Positions 16,807-50,607 of a stretch of 64,000 bases of DNA are shown here, piece by piece. Under the pieces are notes generated by a model. The model did not search any database and was not told the DNA's origin. It saw only the letters and a program-made list of their open reading frames with translations. Position 1 is the first letter of the stretch; each line of letters begins with the position of its first letter. The position numbers and the translations under genes were made by a program. The DNA lies in the NCBI GenBank assembly GCA_948433435.1, contig CAOJDX010000004.1, forward strand, positions 1,058-65,057, read 5' to 3'. Source of the stretch: an uncultured Clostridia bacterium (GTDB taxonomy: Bacteria > Bacillota_I > Bacilli_A > RF39 > UBA660).

Positions 16807-16818
16807 AGGTGAAGATTT

Positions 16819-22533: not shown

Positions 22534-22544
22534 CTAATCACTTC

Positions 22545-23657: not shown

Positions 23658-23686
23658 TTGCTGTAAATTAGATGTTATGATATAAT
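23658..23686 (+). promoter_or_regulatory. Sigma-A-type promoter for the ChW/GH25 gene
   Basis: TTGCTG, 17 nt spacer, TATAAT. Confidence 0.5.
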
Positions 23687-23744
23687 GAAAAAGAAATAAA
23701 TAATAATTAAGGAAAATAAAATAGCAGAATAGGGAGTTGAAAAA

Positions 23745-26441: not shown

Positions 26442-26480
26442 AAATATTAAAGTAATAGAGTATGAGAAAAGGTAAAATAT

Positions 26481-26954: not shown

Positions 26955-26961
26955 AGTAAAT

Positions 26962-28314
26962 ATGAATAAACTAATAAAAAAAATCAAAAAAATTGAAACA
27001 GCAAAAATAATAAAATATATACCAATTATCCTGCTAATTACATATTCTTTTATTATACATTTAAAAATTTCTGCAACTTGGGGAGATGATTTATTTTTTG
27101 CAAATCAAAAAGGAAATTTAATTGAAATTTTAACCAATAGATATTACAACTGGACTTCACGAATTTTAATTGAGACTGTTCTAATTTCTATCCTAGCACA
27201 TGCCAGCTTTTTATGGAAAATAATAGATGCTTTAATGTTATTATTAATTTCTTATTCCCTAAATAAAGTATTTAACCAGAAAAAGAGTAGTTTTATAAAC
27301 ATGATGATTGTACTATTATTGATCATTTATCCTTATTCCCAAATGAATAGTGCAGGTTGGGGAGCCACAACAATCAATTATCTTTGGCCCTTAGCCCTAG
27401 CTCTATTTGCCTTAATTCCAATTATGAATGAGGTAAGAAAGAATGATTATAATAAAATAGGCCTACTTGCTTATTTTCCAGCTTTTATCTTTGCAATCAA
27501 TCAAGAACAATTAAGTGTCCTATATTTAGGATTTCTAATCATATTTAATTTTTATGTTTATGTAACAAATAAAAAAATAAATAAGCTACTGTTCTTTTAT
27601 TTAATAATGAATATTATTGCAATAATTTTTATCTTAAAATGTCCCGGTAACATGATAAGACTAAGAGAGGAAACGTTAACTTGGTTTAAAGATTATAACC
27701 AGTTAACAGTAATAGATAAAATAGGCTTATCTTTGAATAATACTTTTGAATTAGTAATAGGTAAAACTAACTATCTATTTATATTAATGTATTCCAGTAT
27801 AACCTATTACCTTTTAAAAAACTCTAAACATAAAAGTTTAAAAATAATATCAATACTTTCTTTATTAGGTACAGTCATAATACCACATTTTGACCTTTTT
27901 ACAATGAATGATATCTATAACAAAAATATTTGGATTTTAAATGAAATGCTAAAGGTTTTACCAATATCTCAAATAGAGTATCTATTTAGTATCGTATTGT
28001 CTATACTATATTTAGTAAACACTATTTTTATACTAAGTGTTATATTCAAGGAAAATAACTATCTAAGAATATTCGTGCCAATCATATTTTTAGCTGGAAT
28101 ATTATCAAGAATGATTATTGGCTTTAGTCCCACACTTTACATCTCCTCGACTAGAACAGCAATTTTTATGTTTTTCAGTTTTATCATGATCACTATTATA
28201 ATATTAAATAGAAGTAAGTTAAACATGCTTGAAAAAAGAGGGATTATACTATACACCATTTTAATTTTACTCTTGGCGAAATTTTTTACAGTCACATTCA
28301 ATATTAGATTATAA
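26962..28314 (+). CDS. Polytopic membrane protein, putative GT-C glycosyltransferase partner of GtrA (GtrC/YfhO-like role)
   Basis: 450 aa, more than 10 TM. Immediately downstream of GtrA. Inferred from context. Confidence 0.4.
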   Translation: MNKLIKKIKKIETAKIIKYIPIILLITYSFIIHLKISATWGDDLFFANQKGNLIEILTNRYYNWTSRILIETVLISILAHASFLWKIIDALMLLLISYSLNKVFNQKKSSFINMMIVLLLIIYPYSQMNSAGWGATTINYLWPLALALFALIPIMNEVRKNDYNKIGLLAYFPAFIFAINQEQLSVLYLGFLIIFNFYVYVTNKKINKLLFFYLIMNIIAIIFILKCPGNMIRLREETLTWFKDYNQLTVIDKIGLSLNNTFELVIGKTNYLFILMYSSITYYLLKNSKHKSLKIISILSLLGTVIIPHFDLFTMNDIYNKNIWILNEMLKVLPISQIEYLFSIVLSILYLVNTIFILSVIFKENNYLRIFVPIIFLAGILSRMIIGFSPTLYISSTRTAIFMFFSFIMITIIILNRSKLNMLEKRGIILYTILILLLAKFFTVTFNIRL

Positions 28315-38602: not shown

Positions 38603-39174
38603 TGAATGTACAATTAGAAATTAATCGAATCGATAAATATTTAAGAGAGAATTTATCAAATGAAAGATATCTACATTCTATTAGAGTAATGCAAAAGGCT
38701 ATGCTTTATGCTAAAATCTACAATCAGAATGTGGAAAAAGTAAAAATAACAGCTTTAGCTCACGATATAGCAAAAGAATTTTCTAAAGAAGAAAATGAAC
38801 AGTATATTTTAGAAAATAATTTGGATAAAAACTTATTACTACCAGAAAATAAATATTTAATTCATGGCTATGTTGGAGCAGATATTTTAGAAAAAGATTA
38901 TCATTTTACTAAAGAAATGGGAGATGCAATTAGGTATCACACAACAGCACGGGATAAGATGACCATGCTTGATAAAATAATTTATTTAGCTGATAAAACA
39001 GAGGATGGAAGACAATATCCAAATATAGAAACTCAAAGGCAAGAAGCTCTAAAAAATATAAATAAAGCCATAATCTTAACACTAGAAAATAGTATTAGCC
39101 ATACAAAAAATAAAGGAAAGACCATAAATGAATTGTCGATAAAAGCCCTAACTGATTTAAAAAATAACCAATAA
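38602..39174 (+). CDS. HD-domain phosphohydrolase, YqeK-like
   Basis: 190 aa. HSIRV...ALAHDIAK HD motif. Start overlaps the previous stop (TAATG). Confidence 0.6.
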   Translation: MNVQLEINRIDKYLRENLSNERYLHSIRVMQKAMLYAKIYNQNVEKVKITALAHDIAKEFSKEENEQYILENNLDKNLLLPENKYLIHGYVGADILEKDYHFTKEMGDAIRYHTTARDKMTMLDKIIYLADKTEDGRQYPNIETQRQEALKNINKAIILTLENSISHTKNKGKTINELSIKALTDLKNNQ

Positions 39175-39238
39175 AAAAATTGACATTTTATAAGGTTATG
39201 ATATACTTTTATTAGTAGTAATCATTACTATTAAGGAG

Positions 39239-39613
39239 TTGGTCTTTTTGAGAAATACTAAACAAAAAGAACTCATTTTAACAATTATTAATCAAAGTTA
39301 TTCCCATCCTACAGCTATAGAAATTTATAAAGAATGTAGGAAAGAAATTTCTAATATTAGTTTAGGAACAGTTTATAGAAATCTTAATCTACTAGTAGAT
39401 CAATTACAAATTAAAAGAATTAAGATGCCTAATAATGTTGATCGTTATGATAAAATGGAAAATAGACATATTCATTTTATCTGTACAGTATGTAATAAAA
39501 TAATTGATTTAGAAGATTTAAAAGAACACCCGACAATGATTAATGAAAATAAAGTATTTGATTACGAAATGAATTTCAAAGGAATTTGCAAAAATTGTTT
39601 AGAAAAGGAGTGA
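39239..39613 (+). CDS. perR: Fur-family metalloregulator, likely peroxide-responsive PerR
   Basis: Fur-like DNA-binding helix ([11 protein letters not shown]), metal-binding HxH and CxxC pairs ([11 protein letters not shown]...CKNC). Immediately upstream of rubrerythrin. Confidence 0.65.
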
Positions 39614-39620
39614 AAATAAT

Positions 39621-40160
39621 ATGGAAAAAAATCTAAAAGGAACTAAAACAGAGCAAAATTTAATGACAGCATTTGCTGGAGAAAGTCAGGCTAGAAATAA
39701 ATATACTTATTTTGCAAGTGTAGCTAAAAAAGAAGGGTATGAACAAATATCACAAATTTTTTTAGAAACTGCTGATAATGAAAAAGAACATGCTAAAATG
39801 TGGTTCAAAGAATTAGGTGGAATAGGAACTACTGCTGAAAACTTAAAAGCAGCTGCTGAAGGAGAAAACTTTGAGTGGACTGATATGTATAAAGATTTTG
39901 CTAAAACAGCTAAAGAAGAAGGTTTTGACCGACTTGCTTTCTTGTTTGAGGAAGTTGGAAAAATTGAAAAAGAACATGAAGAAAGATATCGCAAGCTATT
40001 AACAAATGTTGAAGATGGATTAGTGTTCTCTAAGGATGGAGATAAAATTTGGCAGTGTCGTAATTGCGGACATATTGTAATTGGTAAAGAAGCTCCTAAA
40101 GTTTGTCCAGTTTGTAATCATCCTCAAGCTTATTTTGAAATTAAAAAAGAAAATTACTAA
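39621..40160 (+). CDS. rbr: Rubrerythrin (ferritin-like diiron domain plus C-terminal rubredoxin-like CxxC...CxxC)
   Basis: [22 protein letters not shown]...EKEHAKMWF and C-terminal CRNCGHI...CPVCNHP. Confidence 0.9.
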
Positions 40161-40178
40161 AAAAATAAAATTTTTTAA

Positions 40179-40211
40179 AGATATTTCAAAGAAAGAAATA
40201 TCTTTTTTTTG
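40179..40211 (+). terminator. Rho-independent terminator after rbr
   Basis: agatatttc/gaaatatct stem with T8 tail. Confidence 0.75.
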
Positions 40212-40250
40212 TTTCAAAATAACCGTTTTAAAAAAAATATAAAAAAGAGG

Positions 40251-40279
40251 TTGACATTCTTGAGTGATATTAATATAAT
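40251..40279 (+). promoter_or_regulatory. Consensus sigma-A promoter of the pncA-pncB-nudix-nadE operon
   Basis: TTGACA (40251-40256), exact 17-nt spacer, TATAAT (40274-40279). Confidence 0.7.
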
Positions 40280-40331
40280 GTTAATAACAAGTGAAAAAAA
40301 CTTGTTTAAAAAACACTTTTGTTATTAACAA
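40279..40331 (+). promoter_or_regulatory. Two copies of the palindromic element TTGTTA-T-TAACAA, a candidate NrtR operator: one abutting the -10 box, one 40 bp downstream
   Basis: tgttaataacaa at 40279-40290 and ttgttattaacaa at 40319-40331. The arms are reverse complements of each other. The same 13-mer recurs at 45392-45404 upstream of the prs-like gene. Confidence 0.45.
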
Positions 40332-40357
40332 AAAAATAAAAAGATAAGGAGAAAAAA

Positions 40358-40948
40358 ATGAACATAAAGAATTTAAAAGTCTACAACAGTGCTTTAATTA
40401 TTGTAGACATGGTTAATGGTTTTGTTACTGAAGGAGAATTACATGATGAAAGAATAGGGAATATAGTTCCAAGACAACTAGAATTAATTAAAGAAGCTAA
40501 AAATGAAGAAAAATTGATTATCTTTATAAAAGATACCCATACAAAAAAATCTGTTGAATTTGAACGATTTCAAAACACTACTCATTGCTTGGCGAGGGAA
40601 AGAGAAAGCGATTTAATCAGTCAATTAAAAATATTTGAGGGGTTGAAAGATACGATAAGTATTGAAAAAAACTCGACCAGTTTTATGGAAGCACCAGCAT
40701 TCAGAAAATTAATGGAGATGCAACAACAAATGAATGATTTTGATATTATAGGTTGCTGTACCGATATTTGTGTTGCTAATGGCAGCATAGGACTGGCTAA
40801 CTATTTAGATCAACAAAATAGACATCACAGTATTAGGGTACATGAAGATGCAATCGCAACCTTTGCTGAGGACATGAGACAAAATTACGTAGAAGCTGCC
40901 AAATTACTAATGACTCAACAAGGAATTCAACTAGTGAAAAAGAAATAA
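40358..40948 (+). CDS. pncA: Isochorismatase-family cysteine hydrolase, nicotinamidase PncA-like
   Basis: ALIIVDMVNGF N-terminal motif and a catalytic Cys region (IIGCCTDICV). Adjacent to pncB. Confidence 0.7.
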   Translation: MNIKNLKVYNSALIIVDMVNGFVTEGELHDERIGNIVPRQLELIKEAKNEEKLIIFIKDTHTKKSVEFERFQNTTHCLARERESDLISQLKIFEGLKDTISIEKNSTSFMEAPAFRKLMEMQQQMNDFDIIGCCTDICVANGSIGLANYLDQQNRHHSIRVHEDAIATFAEDMRQNYVEAAKLLMTQQGIQLVKKK

Positions 40949-41005
40949 TTTTTTTGAAATTGATATTAACAAAATATGAATAAGAAAATTGAGGAGAGAT
41001 AAAAA

Positions 41006-42466
41006 ATGAAAGAAGAAAATTTAACATTATTAACTGACTTATATGAACTTACTATGATGAAAGGATATCATGATATTAAAAATGAGGATAGGGTAGTCTT
41101 TGATGTATTCTATCGTCAAAATCCATCAAATGGAGGATATGCCATTTGTGCTGGTCTAGAACAAGTAATTGAGTATATCAAAAATCTACATTTTGAAAAA
41201 GATGATCTTGATTATTTACGGGAATTAGGATTATTCGACGAAAAATTTCTAGAGTATTTAGCAAATTTTAAATTTACTGGTAACATCTCAGCAATAGAAG
41301 AGGGAACAGTAGTTTTTCCAATGGAACCACTGTTAAAAGTAGAAGCTCCAATTACTGAAGCACAATTAATAGAAACAGCCATTTTAAATATAATCAATCA
41401 TCAAAGCTTAATTGCAACAAAAGCATCAAGAGTATGTCAAGCTGCTGAAAAAGATGATGTAATGGAGTTTGGACTAAGACGTGCCCAAGGTCCAAATGCA
41501 GGAACTCTTGGAGCAAGGGCTGCAGTAATTGGTGGCTGCAGTGGAACAAGTAATGTGCTATGTGGCAAAAATTTTAAAGTACCTATAAAGGGAACTCATG
41601 CTCACAGTTGGATTATGAGCTTTGAAACAGAATATGAAGCCTTTAAAACTTATGCAGAAACATTTCCTAATAATGTCATTCTTTTAGTGGATACCTATGA
41701 TACGTTGAAAAGTGGTATTCCTAATGCCATCAAAGTATTTCAGGAGCTAAAAGAAAAAAATAAATTACCAGAAAATTTTGGAATTCGTTTAGATAGCGGA
41801 GATTTAGCTTATCTATCCAAACAGGCAAGAAAAATGCTAGATGAAGCTGGTTTTTCTAAAGCTGGTATATGTGCTTCAAATGATTTAGACGAATATATAA
41901 TAGAATCTTTAAAAAGACAAGGAGCAAAAATAACAAGTTGGGGAGTAGGAACACATTTAATTACTTCAAGAGATTGTCCAAGTTTTGGAGGTGTATACAA
42001 ATTAGCAGCTATAAAAAAAGAAGGAAAAATCATTCAAAAAATTAAATTAAGTGAAGATCGGATTAAAATTACAAACCCAGGTGATAAACAGGTATTTAGA
42101 TTTTATGATAAAGAAACAGGAAAAATAAGGGGAGATATGATCGGTTATGCCAATGAGGTATATAAAGAAGATGAACAAGTAGTCCTATTTGATCCAATAG
42201 ATACCTGGAAAAAGACAATTTTAGAGCCAAAAACTTATACAGTAAAACCACTGTTAAAACCAATTTTTATCGATGGAAAATGCATATATGAGAGTCCAAA
42301 AGTAATGGAGATTAGACAATACTGTACAAAAGAAAAAGATACCTTAAGTAGTGAAAATAAGAGATTCTTAAATCCTCATCTAATACATGTTGATTTAAGC
42401 CAAAAATTGTGGGAAACAAAAAACAAAATGATTGAAGAAAAAGCAAAACAAAAGGTAAAAAAATAA
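41006..42466 (+). CDS. pncB: Nicotinate phosphoribosyltransferase
   Basis: 486 aa. LTDLYELTM N-terminus, GTHAHSWIMSF and DSGD motifs typical of NAPRTase. Confidence 0.85.
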   Translation: MKEENLTLLTDLYELTMMKGYHDIKNEDRVVFDVFYRQNPSNGGYAICAGLEQVIEYIKNLHFEKDDLDYLRELGLFDEKFLEYLANFKFTGNISAIEEGTVVFPMEPLLKVEAPITEAQLIETAILNIINHQSLIATKASRVCQAAEKDDVMEFGLRRAQGPNAGTLGARAAVIGGCSGTSNVLCGKNFKVPIKGTHAHSWIMSFETEYEAFKTYAETFPNNVILLVDTYDTLKSGIPNAIKVFQELKEKNKLPENFGIRLDSGDLAYLSKQARKMLDEAGFSKAGICASNDLDEYIIESLKRQGAKITSWGVGTHLITSRDCPSFGGVYKLAAIKKEGKIIQKIKLSEDRIKITNPGDKQVFRFYDKETGKIRGDMIGYANEVYKEDEQVVLFDPIDTWKKTILEPKTYTVKPLLKPIFIDGKCIYESPKVMEIRQYCTKEKDTLSSENKRFLNPHLIHVDLSQKLWETKNKMIEEKAKQKVKK

Positions 42467-42481
42467 TATTAAGGAGTTCAG

Positions 42482-43096
42482 ATGAGAAAAGAAAAATTAG
42501 AAGAATTAAAAAGTTACATCGAAGAGTTAAAAACCATTAAAAAGACAAAAAAGGAAATTGAGTTTGATGAAAATAAAAGGCCAAGAACTTTTTTAGAAAT
42601 AGAAAAATATGAATACTATCTCAATAATGGAAGAACAATTACGAGAGAAAAAATTTTAAAAAATCACCAACCAGGAAACGCTGCTATTGTTTTGCCTATA
42701 ACCAAAGATAAAAATACCTTACTTATTGTTCAAACACGTCCTAATACAAAAGAAACAGTTTGTATCGAACTTCCCGCTGGCTATATCGAATACAAGGAAG
42801 ACCCAAAATTAGCAGCTATTCGTGAATTAGAAGAAGAAACAGGATATATTCCAGAAAGACTTCAACTGCTTGATACCTACTATCAAGATCAGGGATGCTA
42901 CGAAGCCTTTAATTATAGCTTTTTAGCCTTTGATTGTACCCCAAAAAAACAACAAAATTTAGATAAAGATGAAATAATTAAATATTTTGAATGTACTTAT
43001 GAGGAAGCTTTAGAACTAGTAAATATGGGGTATATTATCGATATTAATTCTAAATATGCATTAGAAAAATCGAAAAAATATCTCAAATCAAAATAG
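42482..43096 (+). CDS. NUDIX hydrolase (ADP-ribose pyrophosphatase-like)
   Basis: Nudix box LPAGYIEYKEDPKLAAIRELEEETGY. Confidence 0.7.
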   Translation: MRKEKLEELKSYIEELKTIKKTKKEIEFDENKRPRTFLEIEKYEYYLNNGRTITREKILKNHQPGNAAIVLPITKDKNTLLIVQTRPNTKETVCIELPAGYIEYKEDPKLAAIRELEEETGYIPERLQLLDTYYQDQGCYEAFNYSFLAFDCTPKKQQNLDKDEIIKYFECTYEEALELVNMGYIIDINSKYALEKSKKYLKSK

Positions 43097-43175
43097 AAAA
43101 ATAAGAAATGATTATACTATAAATATAAAATAGAAAGTCTTTACTAAAAATAATTAATAAAAAAGGAGATATTTT

Positions 43176-45107
43176 ATGAAAGAATTAGGTTTTATAAGAG
43201 TAGGAGCAATTGTAAATAAATTAGCTCTTGCTAATCCAATAGAAAATGCCCAAGAAATTGTAAAAATGTTAAAAAAAGCTACAAAGGAGCATGTAGCCAT
43301 TGTAACAACACCTGAGTTATCACTAACAGGTTATACTTGTGGAGATTTATTTTTACAAGAGAACCTTTTAAATGCGAGTCTAGATGGGTTAAAAAAAATT
43401 ATAGATGATACAAAAAATTTAGAGATCATTTCTATAGTAGGAATACCAATAAAACATGAAAATCAATTATTTAATTGTGGAGTTGTTATTCAAAAAGGAA
43501 AAATATTAGGAGTAGTACCTAAAACCTATATTCCTAATTACTCTGAATTTTATGAAAAACGTTGGTTTGCTTCTAGTATCAATATAAAAAAGAAAGAAAT
43601 CAACCTATTTGGTCAAAAAGTTCCAATAGATACAAATATAATATTTAAAGACCGAAAAAATACAGAAATAGCATTTGCGATAGAAATATGTGAAGATTTA
43701 TGGAGTGTTAATCCTCCTAGCAATAATCATGCTCTCCATGGGGCCACTATTCTATTTAATCTATCTAGTAGTAATGAGATTATTGGTAAATATGAATATA
43801 GAAAGAATTTAGTATCTATGCAGTCTGCTAAAACGATATCGGCCTATATTTACTCCTCATCTGGAATCATGGAATCTACATCTGATGTATTATTTAGCGG
43901 AACTAGTATGATTTATGAAAATGGAACCCAGTTAGTGGAAAATGAAAGATTTGATTGGAATAGTAATTTAATCTATAGTGATATTGATATATATCATCTA
44001 GCTAATGATCGAAGAAAAAATATCAGTTATATGGGTGTTGTTAATGATTCCACCTATCAGGAAGTAGAAGTAGATATACCTGATAACATTTCAGAAATCA
44101 AAAGGAAATATGCCCAATATCCTTTTGTTCCAACAAACGAAGAAAAAAGAGATGAAAGATGTAAGGAAATTATTACTATTCAAGCGAATGCTTTGGCAAG
44201 AAGACTTTTACAGTTAGGAAATACCAAGTGCGTAATTGGGATGTCTGGTGGTCTAGACTCTACACTAGCATTTTTAGTAATCGTTGAAGCTTTTAAAAAA
44301 TTGAATAGAAGTCGAAAAGATATTATCGGAGTAACTATGCCTGGTTTTGGAACGACAAATAGAACCTATAATAATGCAATTAAATTAGTCAAAGAATATG
44401 AAGCAACTTTGAAAGAAATTAGTATTAAAGAGGCCAGTATTTTACATATGAAAGACATTGGTTTAGAAGAAAATGATCGTAGCATAACTTATGAAAATAT
44501 TCAGGCTAGGGAAAGAACACAAATACTAATGGATCTTGCAAACAAAGAAGGTGGAATAGTAATTGGAACAGGAGACTTATCAGAACTTGCCTTAGGCTGG
44601 TGTACATATAATGGAGACCATATGAGTATGTATGCTGTAAATACATCTATTCCTAAAACATTGGTAAGATACTTAGTCAAGTGGTTAGCAGATCAATCAG
44701 AGCAAGAAAAGAAAAAAATAATTTATGATATTTTAGAAACTCCTATTTCTCCAGAATTATTACCTCCAGATGAAAAAGGAAATATTCTTCAACAAACAGA
44801 ATCAAGTATTGGACCTTATGTTTTACATGACTTTTATCTTTATCATTTTTTAAGATATGGAGCAAGTCCAAAAAAGATTTATCTACTAGCTAATGAAACA
44901 TTTAAAGACAGTTTTTCAAAAGAAGAAATCAAAAAGTGGTTAAAATTATTTATCAAAAGATTTTTTACCCAACAATTTAAAAGAAATTGTCTACCTGATA
45001 GTATTAAAGTTGGTTCAATAAGTCTTTCTCCTAGAGGAGATTTAAGAATGCCAAGTGATGCCAGTTATCTACTTTGGATGAATGAGTTAGATAATTTAGA
45101 TAAATAG
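43176..45107 (+). CDS. nadE: Glutamine-dependent NAD+ synthetase (N-terminal nitrilase-like domain plus C-terminal NAD synthetase domain)
   Basis: 643 aa. C-terminal PP-loop GMSGGLDSTLA. N-terminal CN-hydrolase-like region with EICEDLW. Confidence 0.85.
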   Translation: MKELGFIRVGAIVNKLALANPIENAQEIVKMLKKATKEHVAIVTTPELSLTGYTCGDLFLQENLLNASLDGLKKIIDDTKNLEIISIVGIPIKHENQLFNCGVVIQKGKILGVVPKTYIPNYSEFYEKRWFASSINIKKKEINLFGQKVPIDTNIIFKDRKNTEIAFAIEICEDLWSVNPPSNNHALHGATILFNLSSSNEIIGKYEYRKNLVSMQSAKTISAYIYSSSGIMESTSDVLFSGTSMIYENGTQLVENERFDWNSNLIYSDIDIYHLANDRRKNISYMGVVNDSTYQEVEVDIPDNISEIKRKYAQYPFVPTNEEKRDERCKEIITIQANALARRLLQLGNTKCVIGMSGGLDSTLAFLVIVEAFKKLNRSRKDIIGVTMPGFGTTNRTYNNAIKLVKEYEATLKEISIKEASILHMKDIGLEENDRSITYENIQARERTQILMDLANKEGGIVIGTGDLSELALGWCTYNGDHMSMYAVNTSIPKTLVRYLVKWLADQSEQEKKKIIYDILETPISPELLPPDEKGNILQQTESSIGPYVLHDFYLYHFLRYGASPKKIYLLANETFKDSFSKEEIKKWLKLFIKRFFTQQFKRNCLPDSIKVGSISLSPRGDLRMPSDASYLLWMNELDNLDK

Positions 45108-45391
45108 CAGAAATACCAACCTAATCTTCCTATTGTTACTTTTAAATAAACTAATATATAATAACAATAAGAGGAAGCAATGAAATATTTAATTAGCACT
45201 GAATGTAAAAAATATTAAGTAGGGAGTTAAAGAAAATTATTCTTATTGCCTTAGAGAATATAAAATAGAGTAAAGTCAAAATTAAATAAAAGGAATAATT
45301 ACTTCTATTTAAAGTAAAACATTTATTGTAATATCCATCTTGATTGAGAAAAAAGTTATTTATATTCAAGAAGGTGAGATTTTTTTAAAAT

Positions 45392-45404
45392 TAGTTATTA
45401 ACAA
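45392..45404 (+). promoter_or_regulatory. Third copy of the candidate NrtR operator palindrome, upstream of the prs-like/nadD/pncC/nrtR/nadK unit
   Basis: tagttattaacaa, followed by aaaaataaaaaag. This is nearly identical to the 23-bp context of the 40319 site (gttattaacaaaaaaataaaaag). Confidence 0.45.
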
Positions 45405-45422
45405 AAAATAAAAAAGAAAGGA

Positions 45423-46508
45423 GTGAAATACATGAATGAACTAAAATTAATTGCTTTAAGTAATATTTTAGAACTAGGAACAAAAGTAAACAATAAAGTT
45501 CAGAAAATAAGAGGAACAAATGAAAATTATCTTATTCCCATTACAGAAAACCGCTTCAATAATGGAGAAGGAAAGGTGAGAATACCTGCTACGGTAAGAG
45601 AAAAAGATATTTATATTTTATGTGATGTTGGTAATTATGGAATAACTTATAATATGCATGGTTTTGAACACCATATGTCACCAGATGAACACTTTCAAGA
45701 TATTAAAAGAACCCTTTCGGCACTATCAGGTTATGCAGGAAAAATAACTTTAATAATGCCTCTCTTATACCAAGCAAGACAACATAAAAGAAAGGGAAGA
45801 GAGTCTCTTGATTGTGCTCTTGCTTTACAAGAACTAGAACAATTAGGAGTCCAGCATATTATTACATTTGATGCACATGATCCAAATATTAATAATGCCA
45901 TTCCTAACCTACCATTTGAAAATTTTTATCCTACTCATACTATATTAGAAGAATTAATTGAAAGTGAAATAACTGACAACTTATTAGTAATCAGTCCAGA
46001 TATGGGAGCAATGGAGCGAGCTAGATATTATGCGGATATGTTAGGTTGTGATGTAGGAGTATTTTACAAAAGAAGAGATTTATCAAAGGTAGTAAATGGC
46101 AAAAATCCGATTATTGAACATGCATATATGGGTTCAAGTGTCAAGGATAAGGAAGTGTTAGTTGTAGATGATATGATTGCCTCAGGAACATCAATGTTAG
46201 AAGTAGGAGAAAAACTAAAAAAAGAAGGTGCTAAAAATGTTTATTTCATCGCTACCTTTTCTCTTTTTACAGAGGGAATTAAACTATTTGACAAAGCTTA
46301 TCAAAATGGAATATTTGACCAATTATATACCACTAATTTATCTTATATTCCAAGCGAATATAAAAAAAGAGATTGGTTTACAGAGGTAGACTGTTCCTTA
46401 TATCTTGCTCAAATTATCAATGCATTGCATAATAGAGAATCTTTAAAGCCACTTTTTAATGGAAAAGAAAAAGTTTTAACAAAACTAGATAAAAAAAGAT
46501 ATTCATAA
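45423..46508 (+). CDS. Ribose-phosphate pyrophosphokinase-like (PRPP synthetase family) protein, long form
   Basis: PRPP-binding loop VLVVDDMIASGTSM, and ISPDMGAMERARYYAD. 361 aa. A start at 45432 is also possible. Confidence 0.65.
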   Translation: MKYMNELKLIALSNILELGTKVNNKVQKIRGTNENYLIPITENRFNNGEGKVRIPATVREKDIYILCDVGNYGITYNMHGFEHHMSPDEHFQDIKRTLSALSGYAGKITLIMPLLYQARQHKRKGRESLDCALALQELEQLGVQHIITFDAHDPNINNAIPNLPFENFYPTHTILEELIESEITDNLLVISPDMGAMERARYYADMLGCDVGVFYKRRDLSKVVNGKNPIIEHAYMGSSVKDKEVLVVDDMIASGTSMLEVGEKLKKEGAKNVYFIATFSLFTEGIKLFDKAYQNGIFDQLYTTNLSYIPSEYKKRDWFTEVDCSLYLAQIINALHNRESLKPLFNGKEKVLTKLDKKRYS

Positions 46509-46632
46509 AACAAATAGAGATTATTACCGTTCCAAATGGTTAGAAAGGACGAATAATCTGAAAAAAGTAAATTTAGTCAAGGTTTTCCATTTATATGTGG
46601 GCCTTGATGAAGTGAAAGGAATAAATCTTAAA

Positions 46633-47223
46633 ATGAAAATAGGAATTTTTGGAGGATGTTTTAATCCACCACACAAGATGCATAAAAAAATCGCCCTCAA
46701 TTTAATTAAAAATGATTATTTAGATAAAATAATTTTTGTGCCTACTGGCAATCTTTATCAAAAAAAAGAACTGATTTCCGATGAAAAAAGACTTCAAATG
46801 ATTCAACTAATGATTCAAGATCAACAAAGTTTAGAGGTATCTAACTATGAATTCGGAAAATTAACCTATACCAATCAAACTTTAAAATATTTTAAAAAGA
46901 AATATCCAGAAGATGAATTATATTTTATTTGTGGAAGTGATAACCTTTCAGAATTTGATACATGGAAAGAATATCAATGGATTTTAACTCATTTTAAACT
47001 ATTAGTAATTAAAAGAAATCAGGATAATATCGATCGAATTCTAAAAAAATATGATGAATATAGATCAAATATCCTGATTACCTCTCTAGAAGAAAATAAT
47101 TTATCATCAACAATGATTAGAGAAATGATTCGTCATGGTAAAATAGAACAAATCAAGGAAAGTTTAGATGAAAATGTCTATCAATTCATAAAAGAAATGA
47201 ACCTTTATCTTCCAAAAAAATAA
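46633..47223 (+). CDS. nadD: Nicotinate-nucleotide adenylyltransferase. The six-frame ORF begins at a GTG at 46597; the ATG at 46633 is preferred.
   Basis: MKIGIFGGCFNPPHKMH matches the NadD (H/T)xGH motif region. Confidence 0.8.
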   Translation: MKIGIFGGCFNPPHKMHKKIALNLIKNDYLDKIIFVPTGNLYQKKELISDEKRLQMIQLMIQDQQSLEVSNYEFGKLTYTNQTLKYFKKKYPEDELYFICGSDNLSEFDTWKEYQWILTHFKLLVIKRNQDNIDRILKKYDEYRSNILITSLEENNLSSTMIREMIRHGKIEQIKESLDENVYQFIKEMNLYLPKK

Positions 47224-47376
47224 TGAATCTGATATTTACAATTAATCTGAATCTTTCTATAATAATATACTGTAGAGTAATAAGTAATGAAAAATAATAT
47301 TCTTAAATATTAAATAGCATAAAATCAAGAAAATATCACAAAATGAAGATAGAGTAGAAAAAAGGAAAGGAATAAA

Positions 47377-47850
47377 ATGGATTTCAAAGATTTAGTAGAA
47401 AAATTAACAAAATTAGAAAAAACAATTTCCACTATGGAATCATGCACTGGAGGAGCCGTAGCGAGTAGTATCACCAATATTGAAGGAGCTGGAGAAGTAT
47501 TAAAGTTTAGTGCAATTACTTATTGTAATGAGTTTAAAGAAAAAATGGGTGTATCTGCTGAGGTAATTAAAAAGTTTAGTGTATATAGTATAGAAACAGC
47601 CGATGAAATGAGCAAAAATATTTCTGAGTTTACCAAAAGTGATTATGGAGTAGGAGTAACAGGAAAGTTAAATAAAATAGATAAGAATAACCCTTATGGA
47701 CAGGATAACATTGTTTTTATTAGTATTTATGACCGGGAAAAGAATACGTTTACTCATGATAAAATTACTGCAACTAAGGATAGTCGTAAGGAAAATAAGG
47801 AATTTATCATCCAAAAAATAATAGAAATGTTAACAAAAATAGTACAATAA
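47377..47850 (+). CDS. pncC: CinA C-terminal-domain protein, NMN amidohydrolase PncC-like
   Basis: 157 aa. ESCTGGAVAS motif of the CinA_C family. Confidence 0.7.
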   Translation: MDFKDLVEKLTKLEKTISTMESCTGGAVASSITNIEGAGEVLKFSAITYCNEFKEKMGVSAEVIKKFSVYSIETADEMSKNISEFTKSDYGVGVTGKLNKIDKNNPYGQDNIVFISIYDREKNTFTHDKITATKDSRKENKEFIIQKIIEMLTKIVQ

Positions 47851-47894
47851 ATACTCTTTATGTTATAATCAGCTTATGAAAAAGAGGTGTAAAG

Positions 47895-48725
47895 ATGAAA
47901 GAATATCAAAGTGAACAGGAGTTTTTAAAGGACTATAATTCAGATGAATTTGAAAAACTTTCTATGACAACAGATATTTTACTAGTTAGTGTATCATCAA
48001 AAAAACAAAGTAATTATCGTAAAACTAGTAAAAAAATGATGAGTATTTTATTAGTCAAAAGAACCAATTATCCCTATAAAGATATGTGGTGTTTACCAGG
48101 AGGTTTCTTAGATGTTAGAAATGAATCTTTAGATGAATGTGCCAAAAGAGTTTTAAAAAATGAAACCAATTTATCTAATATTTATTTAGAACAATTATAT
48201 ACATTTTCTGATTTAAACAGAGATCCACGAATGAGAGTAGTATCTACTTCCTATATTGCCTTAGTAGATAAAAATAGATTAAAAGAAAACTTAAATGAAA
48301 ATGTTTCTTGGTTTGATGTTATTTTATTAGAAGAGGATAAAGAAAAAGTTGATATTGTACTAGCTAATGAGGAAGAAACTATTTCCATAACCATCAAAAA
48401 GACGTTAAAAGAAAAGACTACTGATCGTTATAAATATCAGGCTATTAAAAATGAGAAGATAGCTTTTGATCATCCTGTTGTGATTTTATCTGGAATAGAG
48501 CGGTTAAAAAACAAAATAAATTACACAGATATTGTTTTTAATATGATGCCAGAATACTTTACTTTAGGAGAGTTACAGCAAGTATATGAGGTAATTCAAA
48601 ATAAAAAATTGCTAGACCCTGCTTTTAGAAGAATTATTGCCAACAAAGTAGAAAAAACAGAGAAGGTTCAAACAGGAGAGGGCCATAGACCAAGTGCCTT
48701 ATTCAAATATAAACACCATGACTAA
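47895..48725 (+). CDS. nrtR: NrtR-like Nudix-related transcriptional regulator (N-terminal Nudix-like domain plus C-terminal winged-helix domain)
   Basis: Degenerate Nudix region (LLVKRTNYPYKDMWCLPGGFLD...ECAKRVLKNETNL) fused to a C-terminal domain (FTLGELQQVYEVIQNKKLLDPAFRRII). Embedded in the NAD gene cluster. Confidence 0.55.
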   Translation: MKEYQSEQEFLKDYNSDEFEKLSMTTDILLVSVSSKKQSNYRKTSKKMMSILLVKRTNYPYKDMWCLPGGFLDVRNESLDECAKRVLKNETNLSNIYLEQLYTFSDLNRDPRMRVVSTSYIALVDKNRLKENLNENVSWFDVILLEEDKEKVDIVLANEEETISITIKKTLKEKTTDRYKYQAIKNEKIAFDHPVVILSGIERLKNKINYTDIVFNMMPEYFTLGELQQVYEVIQNKKLLDPAFRRIIANKVEKTEKVQTGEGHRPSALFKYKHHD

Positions 48726-49521
48726 AAGAAAAATTACCAAAATCAAACTTTTCCCCAATCAAAAAAATAAGAAGGCTCTAGAAATAGCTACTTATTTACA
48801 ACAAGAATTAGAAAAGAACGGTTATAAAATAGTGGATACTTTTTATGATTTAGCAATTGCTATAGGAGGGGATGGTTCTTTTTTAAGAATGGTAAAAGAA
48901 TGTAACTTTAATGAACAAATATATTATTTAGGCATAAATGCAGGCACTCTAGGGTTTGCTCAAGAAATTTATCCTAAAGACATCGAATCCTTTTTACAAA
49001 GATTAAAAAAAGAAGATTATAAAATAGAAAGTATAGGAATAGAAGAAACTACAATAAGGACTAAAGATTTAGAAAATAAATTTTATAGTTTAAATGAAAT
49101 ATTAATTAGAGAAAAAAGACTAAATACAGCTCATCTAAATATTTTAATAGATGACAATATTTTAGAAAAGTTTGTAGGGGATGGCATTCTGATTTCTACA
49201 TCATTTGGTTCAACTGCTTATAACCTAAGTTTTGGAGGTAGTATTGTTTATAACGAATTACATACAATGCAAATAACTCCGGTTGCTCCTCTCAATAGTA
49301 AAAGTTACAGAGTTCTTCAAAATTCCGTGATTATTCCAGAACAACGAAAAGTAAAATTAATACCGACATCAAGAAATAAAAATTTTATTCTAACCATAGA
49401 CGGAGAAAATCATATTTATAATCATGTAGTTGAAATCGAAATTATAGTTAAAAGAAAGATCAAATTATTGAGAATGAATGAGTATGATTATACCAAGAAG
49501 ATTAATGAAAAGTTTTTGTAA
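48718..49521 (+). CDS. nadK: NAD+ kinase. The six-frame ORF starts at 48694; 48718 is preferred, giving an ATGA-type overlap with the nrtR stop.
   Basis: DLAIAIGGDGSFLR GGDG motif, and NxGxLGF. Confidence 0.85.
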   Translation: MTKRKITKIKLFPNQKNKKALEIATYLQQELEKNGYKIVDTFYDLAIAIGGDGSFLRMVKECNFNEQIYYLGINAGTLGFAQEIYPKDIESFLQRLKKEDYKIESIGIEETTIRTKDLENKFYSLNEILIREKRLNTAHLNILIDDNILEKFVGDGILISTSFGSTAYNLSFGGSIVYNELHTMQITPVAPLNSKSYRVLQNSVIIPEQRKVKLIPTSRNKNFILTIDGENHIYNHVVEIEIIVKRKIKLLRMNEYDYTKKINEKFL

Positions 49522-49575
49522 AAGATTTTATGTAGTAAAGAGGAAAGATTAAAGTTATAAAAGCATAATATTTTA

Positions 49576-50127
49576 TTGGTGATAATTATAAAAAATGAAA
49601 TAAATATATCTTATCCTAGAACCAAATATCCTATTCTAAGTAACGAAATTGACACTCAGATAAAAAAGTTCATTAATCAGTTTATGGAATATGGTAAAGA
49701 AATAACTGATTTTGATTTTACTTATACTTTAGATATAACTTATGATGAGTATAAAAATAAAAATTATTTATCCTATGTTTTTTATACCTCAACTTATACT
49801 GGAGGTGCTCATCCTAATAATCAAATTTTTACCATAAATTATGACATAGAAAAAAATAAATTAATTACGATAGATGACTTAATTGTAAATGATACAACTC
49901 TTTTAACTCTTTCAACTGAAAGTAGAAGACTATTAAAGCAGAATCAAAATATTGGAAAAGATAAAAATTCTTTAAATATGTTAATAAGTGGTACAATGCC
50001 AAATAAAGATAACTTTAAGAATTTTGTATTTTCAGAAAATGGTCTAATCATTTATTTTGAACAATATCAAGTAGCACCTTATTCATCTGGTAGTTTTAAA
50101 GTATTAATACCATATAATAAAATATAA
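49576..50127 (+). CDS. DUF3298/DUF4163-family protein (RsiV/PdaC N-terminal-like)
   Basis: YTSTYTGGAHPNNQIFTINYD contains the GGAHP hallmark. No obvious signal peptide, so the start may lie upstream or the gene may be 5'-truncated. Confidence 0.5.
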   Translation: MVIIIKNEINISYPRTKYPILSNEIDTQIKKFINQFMEYGKEITDFDFTYTLDITYDEYKNKNYLSYVFYTSTYTGGAHPNNQIFTINYDIEKNKLITIDDLIVNDTTLLTLSTESRRLLKQNQNIGKDKNSLNMLISGTMPNKDNFKNFVFSENGLIIYFEQYQVAPYSSGSFKVLIPYNKI

Positions 50128-50298
50128 ATGATAGTAAATAGAATAGATATCAAGATGTTTATTCTATTTTTATTTCTCATTGACAATATTAATAAGCCCT
50201 CATATAATGAAAATATAAACAAATCTAAACAGAGAATTAAAATAGAAAATTTTGAATATTCTCATTAAACACATTATATAAAAACAAGGAGTTTTAAG

Positions 50299-50607
50299 AT
50301 GGAATTAATTGATCAATTTAGATACCAAGTGGGAGCATATTATGGCATTCAATCTATGGATGAATATGATTTAAAAGTTTATGCCTTAAAAGATATAGAA
50401 AACTATATTAGAAGTTTTATTGAACAAAATCCCATTGCTAATTTTGATTATAAAAAAGAAGCAGCTAAAGTAGAAGATGAAATACCATTAGTGACAAAGT
50501 TACAAGATAGCCTTTTGCTTCTTCCACATATAGAAGCACCTTTAGAATTAAAATTACTAATAAAGAAAAAAATACAAAAGTTAAAGGAAGAAAATTACAA
50601 ATATTAA
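50299..50607 (+). CDS. Hypothetical small protein
   Basis: 102 aa ORF with RBS AAGGAG upstream. Confidence 0.35.
   Translation: MELIDQFRYQVGAYYGIQSMDEYDLKVYALKDIENYIRSFIEQNPIANFDYKKEAAKVEDEIPLVTKLQDSLLLLPHIEAPLELKLLIKKKIQKLKEENYKY

What the first reader, a model, noticed from the sequence alone, without database searches (positions are those of the whole stretch)
40251..40331. Perfect sigma-A promoter overlapped by two copies of a TTGTTA-T-TAACAA palindrome: candidate NrtR operator controlling pncA-pncB-nudix-nadE
TTGACA, a 17-nt spacer and TATAAT sit at 40251-40279. The 13-bp palindrome occurs once directly abutting the -10 hexamer (40279-40290, complementary orientation) and again at 40319-40331, between the promoter and the pncA RBS. 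That is classic repressor geometry. An NrtR-like Nudix-wHTH regulator is encoded 7.5 kb downstream in the same NAD gene cluster. NrtR proteins bind palindromic operators upstream of NAD salvage genes and are released by ADP-ribose.
Basis: partly seen in the sequence, partly recalled or inferred. Interest (0 to 1): 0.55.

Follow-up and report, generated by a model that had tools for sequence, protein, structure and literature searches.

The report
NrtR operators on NAD-salvage promoter
A consensus promoter in front of a vitamin-B3 salvage / NAD synthesis operon of an uncultured gut Firmicute carries conserved 25-bp palindromic repressor sites that almost certainly bind the NrtR regulator encoded in the same gene cluster; this is a well-understood kind of control, seen here in a lineage where I found no published description of it.

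Summary
TTGACA-17-TATAAT sits at 40251-40279. TGTTAaTAACA is at 40279-40289 and TTGTTATTAACAA at 40319-40331. These are the only two copies of the 11-bp core in 64 kb (0.18 expected).

The operator unit needs revising. Across 80 related genomes the conserved element is a 25-bp palindrome, TGTTATTAAYA-WWW-TRTTAATAACA.

The window has four sites:
- O1, 40265-40289, with the -10 hexamer at its centre
- O2, 40320-40344, before the pncA ribosome-binding site (RBS)
- O3, 40961-40985, before pncB
- O4, 45393-45417, before prs

They are the four best hits in the window for a motif learned only from relatives. In the relatives, 215 sites occur against 0-2 in shuffles, and 214 lie in NAD gene clusters. 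A reverse search of metagenomes with the motif returns mostly pncA promoters.

The most likely mechanism is that NrtR occludes the promoter and blocks transcription downstream, and is released by an NAD-derived ligand (ADP-ribose by analogy, untested).

Verdict: a new member of a known kind, of modest interest.

The parts
40178..40210 (+). Intrinsic terminator of the upstream rubrerythrin gene (11-bp A/U-rich stem, then U8). It isolates the pncA promoter from upstream transcription.
   Evidence: Fold -9.5 kcal/mol, z = -3.1. Sequence read. Not called by the terminator scan because it has fewer than 3 G-C pairs.
40226..40250 (+). A-rich UP-element-like tract directly upstream of -35. In about half of the relatives the same position holds a third operator, O(-1), 41 bp upstream of O1. 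It is degenerate here.
   Evidence: Conserved TTAAAAAAATGTTAAAAAG block in 72 promoters. O(-1) scores 15-20 bits in relatives; the window maximum is 8.9 bits.
40251..40256 (+). -35 hexamer TTGACA
   Evidence: TTGAC is 96-99% conserved at this position in 72 related promoters.
40274..40279 (+). -10 hexamer TATAAT. It forms the centre of operator O1.
40265..40289 (.). Operator O1: TGATATTAA-TATAATG-TTAATAACA, a 25-bp imperfect palindrome covering the promoter spacer, the -10 hexamer and the predicted start site.
   Evidence: Best PWM hit in the whole window, 25.0 bits, against a shuffled-window maximum of 16.6; the model was trained on relatives only. The left arm TTATTAA is 89-100% conserved although it is not part of either promoter hexamer.
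40286..40306 (+). Stem-loop AACAAGT-gaaaaaa-ACTTGTT at the predicted 5' end of the mRNA
   Evidence: -5.5 kcal/mol. Kept in 65 of 72 related promoters with compensatory arm changes (ACAAGT/ACTTGT, ACAGAT/ATCTGT, ACAGAA/TTCTGT). Mean stem 5.4 bp against 2.3 +/- 0.3 in shuffles.
40320..40344 (.). Operator O2: TGTTATTAA-CAAAAAA-ATAAAAAGA, with a degenerate right arm, ending 1 nt before the RBS.
   Evidence: 19.0 bits, third best in the window. The same position and a 54-56 bp centre-to-centre spacing from O1 recur in relatives.
40346..40351 (+). Ribosome-binding site AAGGAG of pncA
   Evidence: Sequence; 6 nt before the ATG at 40358.
40358..40948 (+). pncA, nicotinamidase (isochorismatase family)
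   Evidence: Pfam PF00857, 9e-18. Syntenic orthologues precede pncB in relatives.
40961..40985 (.). Operator O3: TGATATTAA-CAAAATA-TGAATAAGA, in the 57-nt pncA-pncB spacer
   Evidence: 20.3 bits, second best in the window. There are 26 equivalent sites before pncB in relatives. Untrained EM on pncB upstream regions finds the same motif.
41006..42466 (+). pncB, nicotinate phosphoribosyltransferase
   Evidence: NCBIfam NF006695, 694 bits, above cutoff.
42482..43096 (+). Nudix hydrolase with an intact catalytic box (GYIEYKEDPKLAAIRELEEETGY); ADP-sugar/ADP-ribose pyrophosphatase-like
   Evidence: Pfam NUDIX 1.4e-17. Weak NudE/NudF-type hits. Box read.
43176..45107 (+). nadE, glutamine-dependent NAD synthetase
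   Evidence: NCBIfam NF002730, 878 bits, above cutoff.
45393..45417 (.). Operator O4: AGTTATTAA-CAAAAAA-TAAAAAAGA, abutting the prs RBS
   Evidence: 16.2 bits, fourth best in the window and about equal to the best shuffle. There are 59 equivalent sites before prs in relatives.
45423..46508 (+). prs, PRPP synthetase. The real start is probably ATG 45432.
   Evidence: NCBIfam NF005299, 476 bits, above cutoff. Homologues align from residue 4. RBS AAAGGAG at 45417-45423.
46597..47223 (+). nadD, nicotinate-nucleotide adenylyltransferase
   Evidence: TIGR00482, 149 bits, above cutoff.
47377..47850 (+). pncC (CinA-type NMN deamidase domain). It has its own 11/12 promoter at 47235-47263 with no operator.
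   Evidence: TIGR00199 above cutoff. Promoter. PWM maximum 2.7 bits in 47220-47380.
47895..48725 (+). nrtR: Nudix-like domain with a degenerate catalytic box (RVLKNETNL) plus a C-terminal NrtR winged helix; the proposed binder of O1-O4
   Evidence: Pfam NUDIX plus NrtR_WHD. PDB relatives: AraR 5bs6 at 5e-29, 2fml at 7e-22, S. oneidensis NrtR 3gz5 at 1e-19. Sequence.
48694..49521 (+). nadK, NAD kinase
   Evidence: Pfam NAD_kinase N and C domains.

Best explanation
The region 40226-40351 is the regulated promoter of a nicotinamide/nicotinate salvage and NAD synthesis operon (pncA-pncB-nudix-nadE). A strong sigma-A-type promoter (UP-like A tract, TTGACA, 17 nt, TATAAT) is embedded in a 25-bp palindromic operator, O1, with clade consensus TGTTATTAAYA-WWW-TRTTAATAACA. 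The -10 hexamer is the centre of O1, and its right arm reaches the transcription start. Three further copies of the operator lie just upstream of the ribosome-binding sites of pncA (O2), pncB (O3) and prs (O4).

Inferred mechanism: dimers of the non-catalytic Nudix/winged-helix protein NrtR (47895-48725) bind these palindromes. At O1 they exclude RNA polymerase. At O2-O4 they either act as roadblocks or stabilise O1 occupancy; the O1-O2 centres are 55 bp apart. When an NAD-derived ligand binds the Nudix-like domain, DNA affinity falls and salvage (pncA, pncB), amidation (nadE), PRPP supply (prs) and adenylylation (nadD) are derepressed together. By analogy with characterised NrtRs the ligand would be ADP-ribose, the product of NAD breakdown. 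The co-transcribed active-type Nudix hydrolase could then degrade the inducer and close a feedback loop.

Shown here: the sequence elements, their statistical significance, their conservation and exclusive association with NAD genes, and the family assignment of the regulator. Inferred: that NrtR is the binder, the sign of regulation, the stoichiometry and the ligand.
For: (1) Anatomy.
(2) The regulator has the NrtR domain pair and solved NrtR-family relatives, with a degenerate Nudix box as in non-catalytic NrtRs (PMC12735969).
(3) The exact 11-bp core occurs 91 times in 1.26 Mb of 80 related loci, against about 7 expected from base composition (my estimate). 86 of the 91 lie in intergenic DNA with pncA, prs, pncB, nadD or nrtR as the next recognised gene downstream.
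(4) 72 distinct related promoters share -35, a 17-nt spacer, -10 and the operator in one register, including conserved spacer bases (TTATTAA) that sigma does not need.
(5) Unseeded EM on upstream regions of pncA, pncB and prs each recovers the same motif. A palindromic model trained with the window excluded ranks O1, O3, O2 and O4 as the top four of about 64,000 positions (25.0, 20.3, 19.0 and 16.2 bits; shuffle maximum 16.6, mean 13.0).
(6) At 16.7 bits or more the relatives have 215 sites against 0-2 in shuffles. 207 are within 700 nt upstream of NAD genes and none is inside a NAD gene. 7 of the 8 remaining sites are also inside NAD clusters.
(7) Reverse test: 126 exact matches to the 25-mer consensus were found in 120 metagenome stretches. 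89 have a NAD gene start less than 700 nt downstream (74 of them pncA), 6 have NAD genes elsewhere in the locus, and 6 precede an NMN-adenylyltransferase-like gene.
(8) Departures from consensus are one-sided (325) rather than compensated (19), as expected for a protein-read DNA palindrome and not an RNA helix.
(9) Published NrtR sites overlap promoters or lie between promoter and start codon. Published NrtR regulons include pncA, an internal site before pncB, nadD, nadE (C. acetobutylicum) and prs (Shewanella). M. smegmatis NrtR binds an arm-N7-arm palindrome of 23 bp (PMC2330246, PMC6800001).
(10) No NiaR or NadR-type regulator is encoded in the window, and Rfam finds no RNA element here.
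Against: - No binding or expression data exist for this organism.
- The 80 comparison loci were collected through nrtR, so co-occurrence of motif and nrtR is partly by construction. Only 23 of the 120 motif-selected metagenome stretches include nrtR; the rest are too short to tell.
- Centred on its dyad, the motif has AA-N7-TT where most NrtR groups have the GT-N7-AC core. The published core matches only if one looks at a single 11-mer arm (TG-N7-CA).
- The NCBIfam NrtR equivalog model scores below its cutoff (152 against 400 bits).
- O4 is only at the level of the best shuffle, and the right arms of O2-O4 are degenerate in this window.
- nrtR itself has no significant operator here (12.9 bits).
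- Some NrtR-family proteins use other ligands (arabinose for the Bacteroides AraR that is the best PDB match, from my recollection of the AraR structure work; PMC6800001 flags Corynebacterium NdnR as behaving differently, and my recollection, not checked here, is that its ligand is NAD), so ADP-ribose is uncertain.
Confidence: 0.8

Rival explanations
1. The functional unit is the reader's 11-13-bp palindrome (TGTTAnTAACA). Each 25-bp element is then two such sites 14 bp apart, bound by two NrtR dimers (a tetramer or higher oligomer) rather than one dimer.
For: Each arm, GTTAnTAAC, is itself palindromic. Information content is about equal in the inner and outer halves of each arm, and only the central 3 bp are uninformative. 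The published text gives a TG-N7-CA core that fits the 11-mer (PMC2330246). Positions 10 and 16 prefer Y and R, which extend one or other 11-mer. S. sobrinus NrtR shows supershifts and oligomers (PMC12735969).
Against: No NAD-linked site consists of a lone 11-mer, by inspection of the sequence contexts printed. The exact 11-mer is present in only 16 of 128 distinct non-promoter operators and never in both arms, whereas the 25-bp frame is always kept. The five 11-mer copies outside NAD intergenic DNA have no visible partner arm. Half-site centres 6 bp apart are too close for a winged-helix dimer, and two dimers 14 bp apart would overlap; this is structural reasoning and was not tested. M. smegmatis NrtR uses an arm-N7-arm palindrome of similar length (PMC6800001).
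Confidence: 0.15
2. The palindromes are operators of a different transcription factor, for example the FUR-family protein encoded 640 bp upstream (39239-39613) or a regulator encoded elsewhere in the genome. NrtR would then bind something else.
For: A FUR-family gene lies next to the promoter region, and Fur/PerR boxes are A/T-rich inverted repeats. The comparison set cannot by itself separate NrtR from any unlinked regulator.
Against: The perR-like/rubrerythrin pair is adjacent to pncA in only 1 of 80 loci (L001), while the operators are present nearly everywhere. There is no motif hit upstream of the FUR-family gene or rubrerythrin, the usual targets of such a regulator (maximum 0.6 bits). 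The sites are confined to NAD genes, and nrtR is the only regulator gene recurrent in the cluster. No NiaR or NadR is encoded in the window.
Confidence: 0.05
3. The downstream elements O2, O3 and O4 act in the mRNA as hairpins that mask the adjacent Shine-Dalgarno sequence or bind a factor, rather than as DNA operators.
For: In relatives these sites sit in a nearly fixed register, with the right arm TTAATAAG running into the SD sequence AAGAGG of pncA, pncB and prs.
Against: As RNA the window's O2 folds at only -1.4 kcal/mol, z = -1.3. Arm changes are one-sided 325 times and compensated only 19 times. The same sequence also occurs at untranscribed positions (O(-1) and the left arm of O1). Rfam finds nothing.
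Confidence: 0.03
4. Chance A/T-rich palindromes or promoter-intrinsic sequence in a 27% G+C genome, with no regulatory role.
For: Loose versions of the motif are at background frequency: 13-mer at 2 mismatches or fewer, 19 against 18; inner arms at 2 mismatches or fewer, 398 against about 280.
Against. The exact core is tenfold enriched. The full model gives 215 sites against 0-2 in shuffles, and the sites are confined to NAD gene upstream regions across many species.
Confidence: 0.01

Closest known systems
NrtR regulon of Clostridium acetobutylicum (group Firmicutes-2a; '#nrtR-pncA-#pncB-nadD-nadE', Rodionov et al. 2008, PMC2330246)
   Same: Same regulator family. Same targets (pncA, pncB, nadD, nadE), including a second site inside the operon in front of pncB. 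Sites overlap the promoter or lie between promoter and start codon. Predicted repressor.
   Different: Here nrtR is at the far end of the cluster, behind its own operator-free promoter, instead of leading the operon. prs, a Nudix hydrolase, pncC and nadK are also clustered. I could not retrieve the published site sequences (no supplement is held), so I cannot say whether the motif is the same.
Shewanella oneidensis NrtR (SO1979; PDB 3GZ5/3GZ6/3GZ8), repressor of prs-nadV released by ADP-ribose
   Same: Nudix-like domain plus winged helix (E=1e-19). prs is a target. The Nudix domain is non-catalytic. The operator is palindromic.
   Different: Proteobacterial. 240 aa, without the roughly 50-residue insertion between the domains seen here. 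Its motif belongs to the 21-bp GT-N7-AC type. The ligand has been tested there and not here.
Mycobacterium smegmatis NrtR operator GTTTTCGA-N7-TCGAAAAC (PMC6800001)
   Same: Arm-N7-arm palindrome of similar length (23 against 25 bp). Located at the promoter of NAD genes. ADP-ribose antagonises binding.
   Different: Unrelated arm sequence. It controls de novo nadABC and is divergently autoregulated.
Streptococcus suis / S. sobrinus NrtR (motif ATA-N-TTTA-N3-TAAAA-N2-ATA; PMC6800001, PMC12735969)
   Same: Firmicute. A/T-rich palindrome. Targets include pncB. Degenerate Nudix box. ADP-ribose releases the protein from DNA.
   Different: Different motif and different main target (pnuC-nadR). One or two sites per genome, rather than arrays of two or three operators per promoter.
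Enterobacterial NadR operator TGTTTA-N6-TAAACA
   Same: Superficially similar half-site (TGTT.A / T.AACA), and it also controls NAD genes.
   Different: NadR is an HTH-NMNAT-kinase fusion. No such protein is encoded here; the adenylyltransferase at 46597 is a plain NadD. Spacing and length differ. The resemblance is most likely coincidental.
Bacteroides thetaiotaomicron AraR (PDB 5BS6), NrtR-family arabinose regulator
   Same: Best solved sequence relative (5e-29). Same two-domain fold.
   Different: It controls pentose utilisation and, from my recollection of the AraR structure work rather than any source read here, responds to arabinose. It shows that ligand and regulon cannot be inferred from family membership alone.

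Membership tests
NrtR family (protein at 47895-48725) | N-terminal Nudix-fold domain | tested here: met
   Pfam PF00293, 5e-11, residues 51-145. Aligns to the Nudix domains of 5bs6, 2fml and 3gz5.
NrtR family (protein at 47895-48725) | C-terminal NrtR-type winged helix DNA-binding domain | tested here: met
   PF21906 NrtR_WHD, 1.4e-15, residues 214-271, above cutoff.
NrtR family (protein at 47895-48725) | Match to NCBI's curated equivalog model for the ADPR-responsive repressor (NF050029) | tested here: not met
   151.7 bits against a cutoff of 400. It is the best-scoring model, but the protein is outside the equivalog's trusted range, so it is a family member and not a demonstrated functional equivalent.
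NrtR family (protein at 47895-48725) | Gene clustered with NAD metabolism genes | tested here: met
   Window cluster 40358-49521. The same linkage, rearranged, is seen in most of the 80 related loci.
NrtR regulon / operator | Palindromic site conserved upstream of NAD genes in genomes that encode the regulator, overlapping the promoter or lying between promoter and start codon | tested here: met
NrtR regulon / operator | 21-bp palindrome with GT-N7-AC (TG-N7-CA) core, found in 12 of 18 published groups and therefore typical rather than obligatory | tested here: inconclusive
   The site is 25 bp. Centred on its dyad the core positions read AA-N7-TT. A TG-N7-CA pattern exists only within one 11-bp arm (PMC2330246).
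NrtR regulon / operator | Direct sequence-specific binding of the protein to the site | not testable with these tools
   Needs EMSA, footprinting or ChIP.
NrtR regulon / operator | Binding relieved by ADP-ribose or a related NAD metabolite | not testable with these tools
   Only indirect evidence: the regulator's own Nudix box is degenerate (RVLKNETNL), as in ligand-sensing non-catalytic NrtRs.
Sigma-A (sigma-70 type) promoter | -35 and -10 hexamers at 16-18 nt spacing, conserved in orthologous positions | tested here: met
   12/12 with a 17-nt spacer. Conserved in 72 related promoters. The transcription start was not mapped.
NiaR or NadR control of NAD genes (considered) | Presence of the regulator (HTH_11 plus 3H domain, or HTH-NMNAT-kinase fusion) | tested here: not met
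   None among 60 of the window's 61 ORFs of 100 aa or more (the 61st, 1893-2207 on the minus strand, lies inside a larger gene and was not scanned). The rest of the genome was not seen.

The most novel reading that the evidence does not exclude
The operators may be more than simple dimer sites. Each is built from two self-palindromic 11-bp subsites. In relatives, up to three operators are phased at fixed 41- and 54-56-bp intervals from the UP element to the Shine-Dalgarno sequence, which would fit a higher-order NrtR assembly wrapping the whole promoter and leader. The clade-wide regulon also contains proteins with no known link to NAD: an unannotated 132-147-aa protein and two different radical-SAM enzymes. 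This hints at unrecognised NAD-related chemistry in these reduced-genome gut bacteria.
Probability: 0.12. Interest if true: 0.55.

Novelty: new member of a known kind. Interest (0 to 1): 0.3.

Why it matters
It gives a high-confidence regulatory annotation for a large clade of uncultured, small-genome gut Bacilli. The related loci come from metagenome-assembled genomes (MAGs) labelled Bacilli, Tenericutes or 'Ca. Onthousia'. These organisms appear to depend on salvaged vitamin B3. The annotation covers:
- the operator consensus
- the regulon: pncA, pncB, Nudix, nadE, prs, nadD, plus accessory genes in relatives
- the promoter architecture

The 25-bp motif can be used directly to find NAD-regulated genes in metagenomes, and it flags a few uncharacterised proteins as candidates for NAD-linked functions. 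It does not change what is understood about NrtR.

Tried and rejected
The A/T-only inner arms at 2 mismatches or fewer are also mostly background: 398 against about 280.
- Rfam scan of 39000-50500 for riboswitches or leaders found nothing relevant.
- RNA-hairpin reading of O2-O4: rejected on folding energy and lack of compensatory change.
- FUR-family neighbour as the binder: rejected on synteny and the absence of sites at its own operon.
- Published site lists and the S. oneidensis structure paper: the supplement and PMC2896262 are not held. A base-by-base comparison with published Firmicute NrtR motifs was therefore not possible.
- The homologue search on NrtR returned only unnamed close relatives, so no cultured reference organism could be pulled in.
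- tblastn for a remnant of the relatives' small gene in the window's nadE-prs spacer found nothing significant. Only the promoter/operator relic aligns.
- A possible autoregulatory site before nrtR (47861-47885) scores 12.9 bits, below the shuffle level, and is not claimed.

Full report
**1. What is in the sequence**

Read directly, the stretch 40251-40279 is TTGACA, 17 nt, TATAAT. The promoter scan gives it 12 of 12.
- It follows the rubrerythrin gene (39621-40160) and a terminator hairpin with a U8 tail at 40178-40210 (-9.5 kcal/mol). It is therefore a self-standing promoter.
- TGTTAATAACA lies at 40279-40289, sharing its first T with the -10 hexamer.
- TTGTTATTAACAA lies at 40319-40331, 15 nt before the AAGGAG ribosome-binding site (RBS) of the ORF that starts at 40358.
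- The 11-bp core TGTTANTAACA occurs only twice in the window, both copies here. 0.18 are expected, and 1 of 100 shuffles has two.
- The first copy is perfect only as an 11-mer.

**2. The genes**

| Coordinates | Gene | Note |
|---|---|---|
| 40358 | pncA | |
| 41006 | pncB | |
| 42482 | Nudix hydrolase | Intact catalytic box |
| 43176 | nadE | Glutamine-dependent |
| 45423 | prs | |
| 46597 | nadD | |
| 47377 | pncC | |
| 47895 | nrtR | |
| 48694 | nadK | |

- The nrtR product has NUDIX plus NrtR_WHD domains.
- Its solved relatives are Bacteroides AraR, E. faecalis 2FML and S. oneidensis NrtR.
- Its own Nudix box is degenerate (RVLKNETNL in place of REUxEExGU). This is the state reported for non-catalytic, ligand-sensing NrtRs (PMC12735969).
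- The only other regulators in the window are a FUR-family protein beside rubrerythrin and an XRE protein 10 kb away. There is no NiaR or NadR.

**3. Comparative test**

A scan of species-representative genomes with the NrtR protein returned 80 loci (NrtR 69-86% identical). Nearly all come from uncultured gut metagenome-assembled genomes (MAGs) labelled Bacilli, Tenericutes, Mollicutes or 'Ca. Onthousia'. The NAD cluster is conserved but rearranged.
- The exact 11-bp core occurs 91 times in these 1.26 Mb, against about 7 expected from base composition (my estimate). 86 of the 91 lie in intergenic DNA with pncA, prs, pncB, nadD or nrtR as the next recognised gene downstream.
- Seventy-two distinct promoters share one layout: an A-rich UP-like block, TTGACA, 17 nt, TATAAT, and the box abutting -10.

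**4. The conserved unit is 25 bp**

In those promoters the spacer bases TTATTAA just upstream of -10 are 89-100% conserved although sigma does not read them. Together with the box they form TGTTATTAA-TATAATG-TTAATAACA.
- Unseeded expectation-maximisation on the regions upstream of pncB, prs and pncA each returned the same element.
- A palindrome-constrained run, trained with the window left out, gave TGTTATTAAYA-WWW-TRTTAATAACA.
- The arm GTTAnTAAC is itself palindromic.
- The 25-bp frame is always kept, by inspection of the sequence contexts printed. The exact 11-mer is found in only 16 of 128 distinct non-promoter operators and never in both arms.
- Published NrtR sites are palindromes of 21-23 bp with a 7-bp centre (PMC2330246, PMC6800001), which fits one dimer per 25-bp site. 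My recollection that the S. oneidensis co-crystal used a 27-mer is unverified, because the paper is not held.

**5. Sites in the window**

Scanning the window with that model ranks four positions on top:

| Site | Core coordinates | Score (bits) | Position |
|---|---|---|---|
| O1 | 40265-40289 | 25.0 | Promoter; -10 at its centre |
| O3 | 40961-40985 | 20.3 | pncA-pncB spacer |
| O2 | 40320-40344 | 19.0 | Before the pncA RBS |
| O4 | 45393-45417 | 16.2 | Before the prs RBS |

The best score in 30 shuffled windows averages 13.0, with a maximum of 16.6. O2-O4 have good left arms and degenerate right arms. A 12.9-bit match before nrtR is not significant.

**6. Specificity**

- At 16.7 bits or more the related loci hold 215 sites, against 0-2 after shuffling.
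- 207 are within 700 nt upstream of pncA (103), prs (59), pncB (26), nrtR (10) or nadD (9). None lies inside a NAD gene.
- Seven of the eight remaining sites are also inside NAD clusters.
- Sites fall in fixed positions: about 70-90 nt (O1) and about 13-36 nt (O2 type) from start codons. Centre-to-centre distances are 54-56 bp for O1 to O2, and 41 bp between an extra operator O(-1) over the UP element and O1.

Reverse test.
- 89 have a NAD gene start less than 700 nt downstream. 74 of these are pncA, many only 26-45% identical to the window's, so the motif spans a wider group than the 80 loci.
- 6 have NAD genes elsewhere in the stretch.
- 6 precede an NMN-adenylyltransferase-like gene, and 4 precede a radical-SAM gene.
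- 8 are in unrelated contigs of 34-53% G+C, before an ATPase_2/MarR-like gene.
- The rest have short flanks or unknown neighbours.

**7. DNA or RNA?**

The O2-type sites sit in nearly fixed register with the Shine-Dalgarno sequence, so an RNA role was considered.
- As RNA, O2 folds at only -1.4 kcal/mol.
- Deviations from consensus are one-sided 325 times and compensated 19 times.
- The same sequence occurs at untranscribed positions.
- Rfam finds nothing.

The elements are read as DNA sequence.

In contrast, the short stem-loop that starts inside O1's right arm (40286-40306, -5.5 kcal/mol) does show compensatory changes across relatives. Its mean stem is 5.4 bp against 2.3 +/- 0.3 in shuffles. 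It is most simply a 5'-terminal stabilising hairpin of the mRNA.

**8. Mechanism**

O1 covers about -22 to +3 relative to the predicted start, so a bound protein would exclude RNA polymerase. O2, O3 and O4 would act as roadblocks or as helper sites.
- NrtR is the only NAD-specific regulator in the cluster, and the only regulator gene recurrent in it.
- Published NrtR regulons have the same targets and the same site placement (PMC2330246).
- The ligand (ADP-ribose in Shewanella, Synechocystis, S. suis, S. sobrinus and M. smegmatis) is inferred only. AraR, as I recall, responds to arabinose, and PMC6800001 flags Corynebacterium NdnR as behaving differently, so the family admits other ligands.
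- The active-type Nudix hydrolase inside the regulated operon could remove ADP-ribose and feed ribose-5-phosphate to prs. This feedback idea appears in the literature (PMC12735969) but is untested here.

**9. Comparison and novelty**

This is an NrtR-type repression system with a lineage-specific operator and a large, compact regulon.
- It differs from the common published motif (21 bp, GT-N7-AC) in length and core.
- It differs from the C. acetobutylicum arrangement in gene order and in the apparent lack of strong autoregulation.
- I could not check whether this exact motif is already catalogued for Clostridia.
- It is a new member of a known kind, and of modest interest.

The open points are stoichiometry, the role of the phased operator arrays, and the unannotated proteins that share the operator in relatives.

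Noticed in passing
window 40286-40306: A 7-bp stem-loop begins at the predicted transcription start, and its 5' arm overlaps the right arm of operator O1. It is kept in 65 of 72 related promoters with compensatory arm changes, so it is probably a 5'-terminal mRNA-stabilising hairpin.
   Followed up: yes
window 45108-45422: The 316-nt spacer between nadE and prs has no ORF. It holds a 10/12 promoter (45133-45162) that aligns to the relatives' operator-promoter with a 4-6-nt deletion in the right arm, followed by an RBS and a 12-codon ORF. It looks like the relic of a promoter and small gene that relatives still have.
   Followed up: partly
L016 7392-7790; L018 8407-8850; L024 4422-4841; L062 7249-7653 (19 of 80 loci): An unannotated 132-147-aa protein family (no Pfam match) sits directly behind an O1-type operator-promoter, ahead of prs, pncA or nadD. 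It is split by stops in some loci (L021, L022) and appears truncated in L002. It is a candidate new member of the NAD regulon and is absent from the window.
   Followed up: partly
L030 ~1786, L033 ~2782, L055 4822-5853; metagenome loci L081, L125, L127, L171: Two different radical-SAM proteins are preceded by the operator. One is a MiaB-like UPF0004 plus Radical_SAM protein of 343-358 aa inside NAD clusters. The other is a 291-aa radical-SAM protein. Neither has an obvious link to NAD metabolism.
   Followed up: partly
L095, L112, L135, L191, L193, L197: A small cytidylyltransferase-like (NMN adenylyltransferase-like; 164 aa in the one sequence printed in full, L112) gene lies behind a full operator-promoter in metagenome contigs. 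L093 has a P-loop kinase-like gene (183 aa) in the same position.
   Followed up: partly
L130, L137, L143, L163, L181, L190 (43-53% G+C); L129, L178 (34-35% G+C): The perfect palindrome TGTTATTAACAAWTTGTTAATAACA also occurs in unrelated, higher-G+C contigs. Where a downstream ORF was called (L130, L143, L181) it encodes the same protein, and the L130 copy scanned against Pfam is an ATPase_2 (archaeal-type ATPase) with a MarR-like C-terminus. This is probably an unrelated operator that happens to match.
   Followed up: partly
L050 5777-7807: A group II intron-type reverse transcriptase ORF (420 aa) is inserted between an intact O1/O2 operator-promoter and prs.
   Followed up: no
window 45417-45434: The mechanical ORF start of prs (GTG 45423) lies inside the RBS AAAGGAG. 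ATG 45432 is the likelier start, since homologues align from residue 4.
   Followed up: partly
window 40226-40250 and relatives: The A-rich block upstream of -35 resembles an UP element. In about half of the relatives it also scores as a third operator, 41 bp upstream of O1. In the window it has decayed to 8.9 bits.
   Followed up: partly
window 39239-40160: A FUR-family regulator lies immediately upstream of rubrerythrin (a PerR-rbr-like pair). It is preceded by an HD-domain protein and an Imm33-domain protein. No NAD operator is associated with them.
   Followed up: partly
window 50180-50208: A second 12/12 TTGACA-17-TATAAT promoter lies upstream of an unannotated 102-aa ORF (50299-50607).
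   Followed up: no
window 47235-47263: An 11/12 promoter (TTTACA-17-TATAAT) in front of pncC-nrtR-nadK has no operator (PWM maximum 2.7 bits). In this genome the regulator therefore seems to be expressed constitutively rather than autoregulated.
   Followed up: partly
window 10590-28314: A large cell-envelope polysaccharide cluster: ABC-2 exporter, several GT2/GT4 glycosyltransferases, a flippase and GtrA. It also has a 898-aa protein with nine ChW repeats and a GH25 lysozyme domain. It is unrelated to the finding.
   Followed up: no
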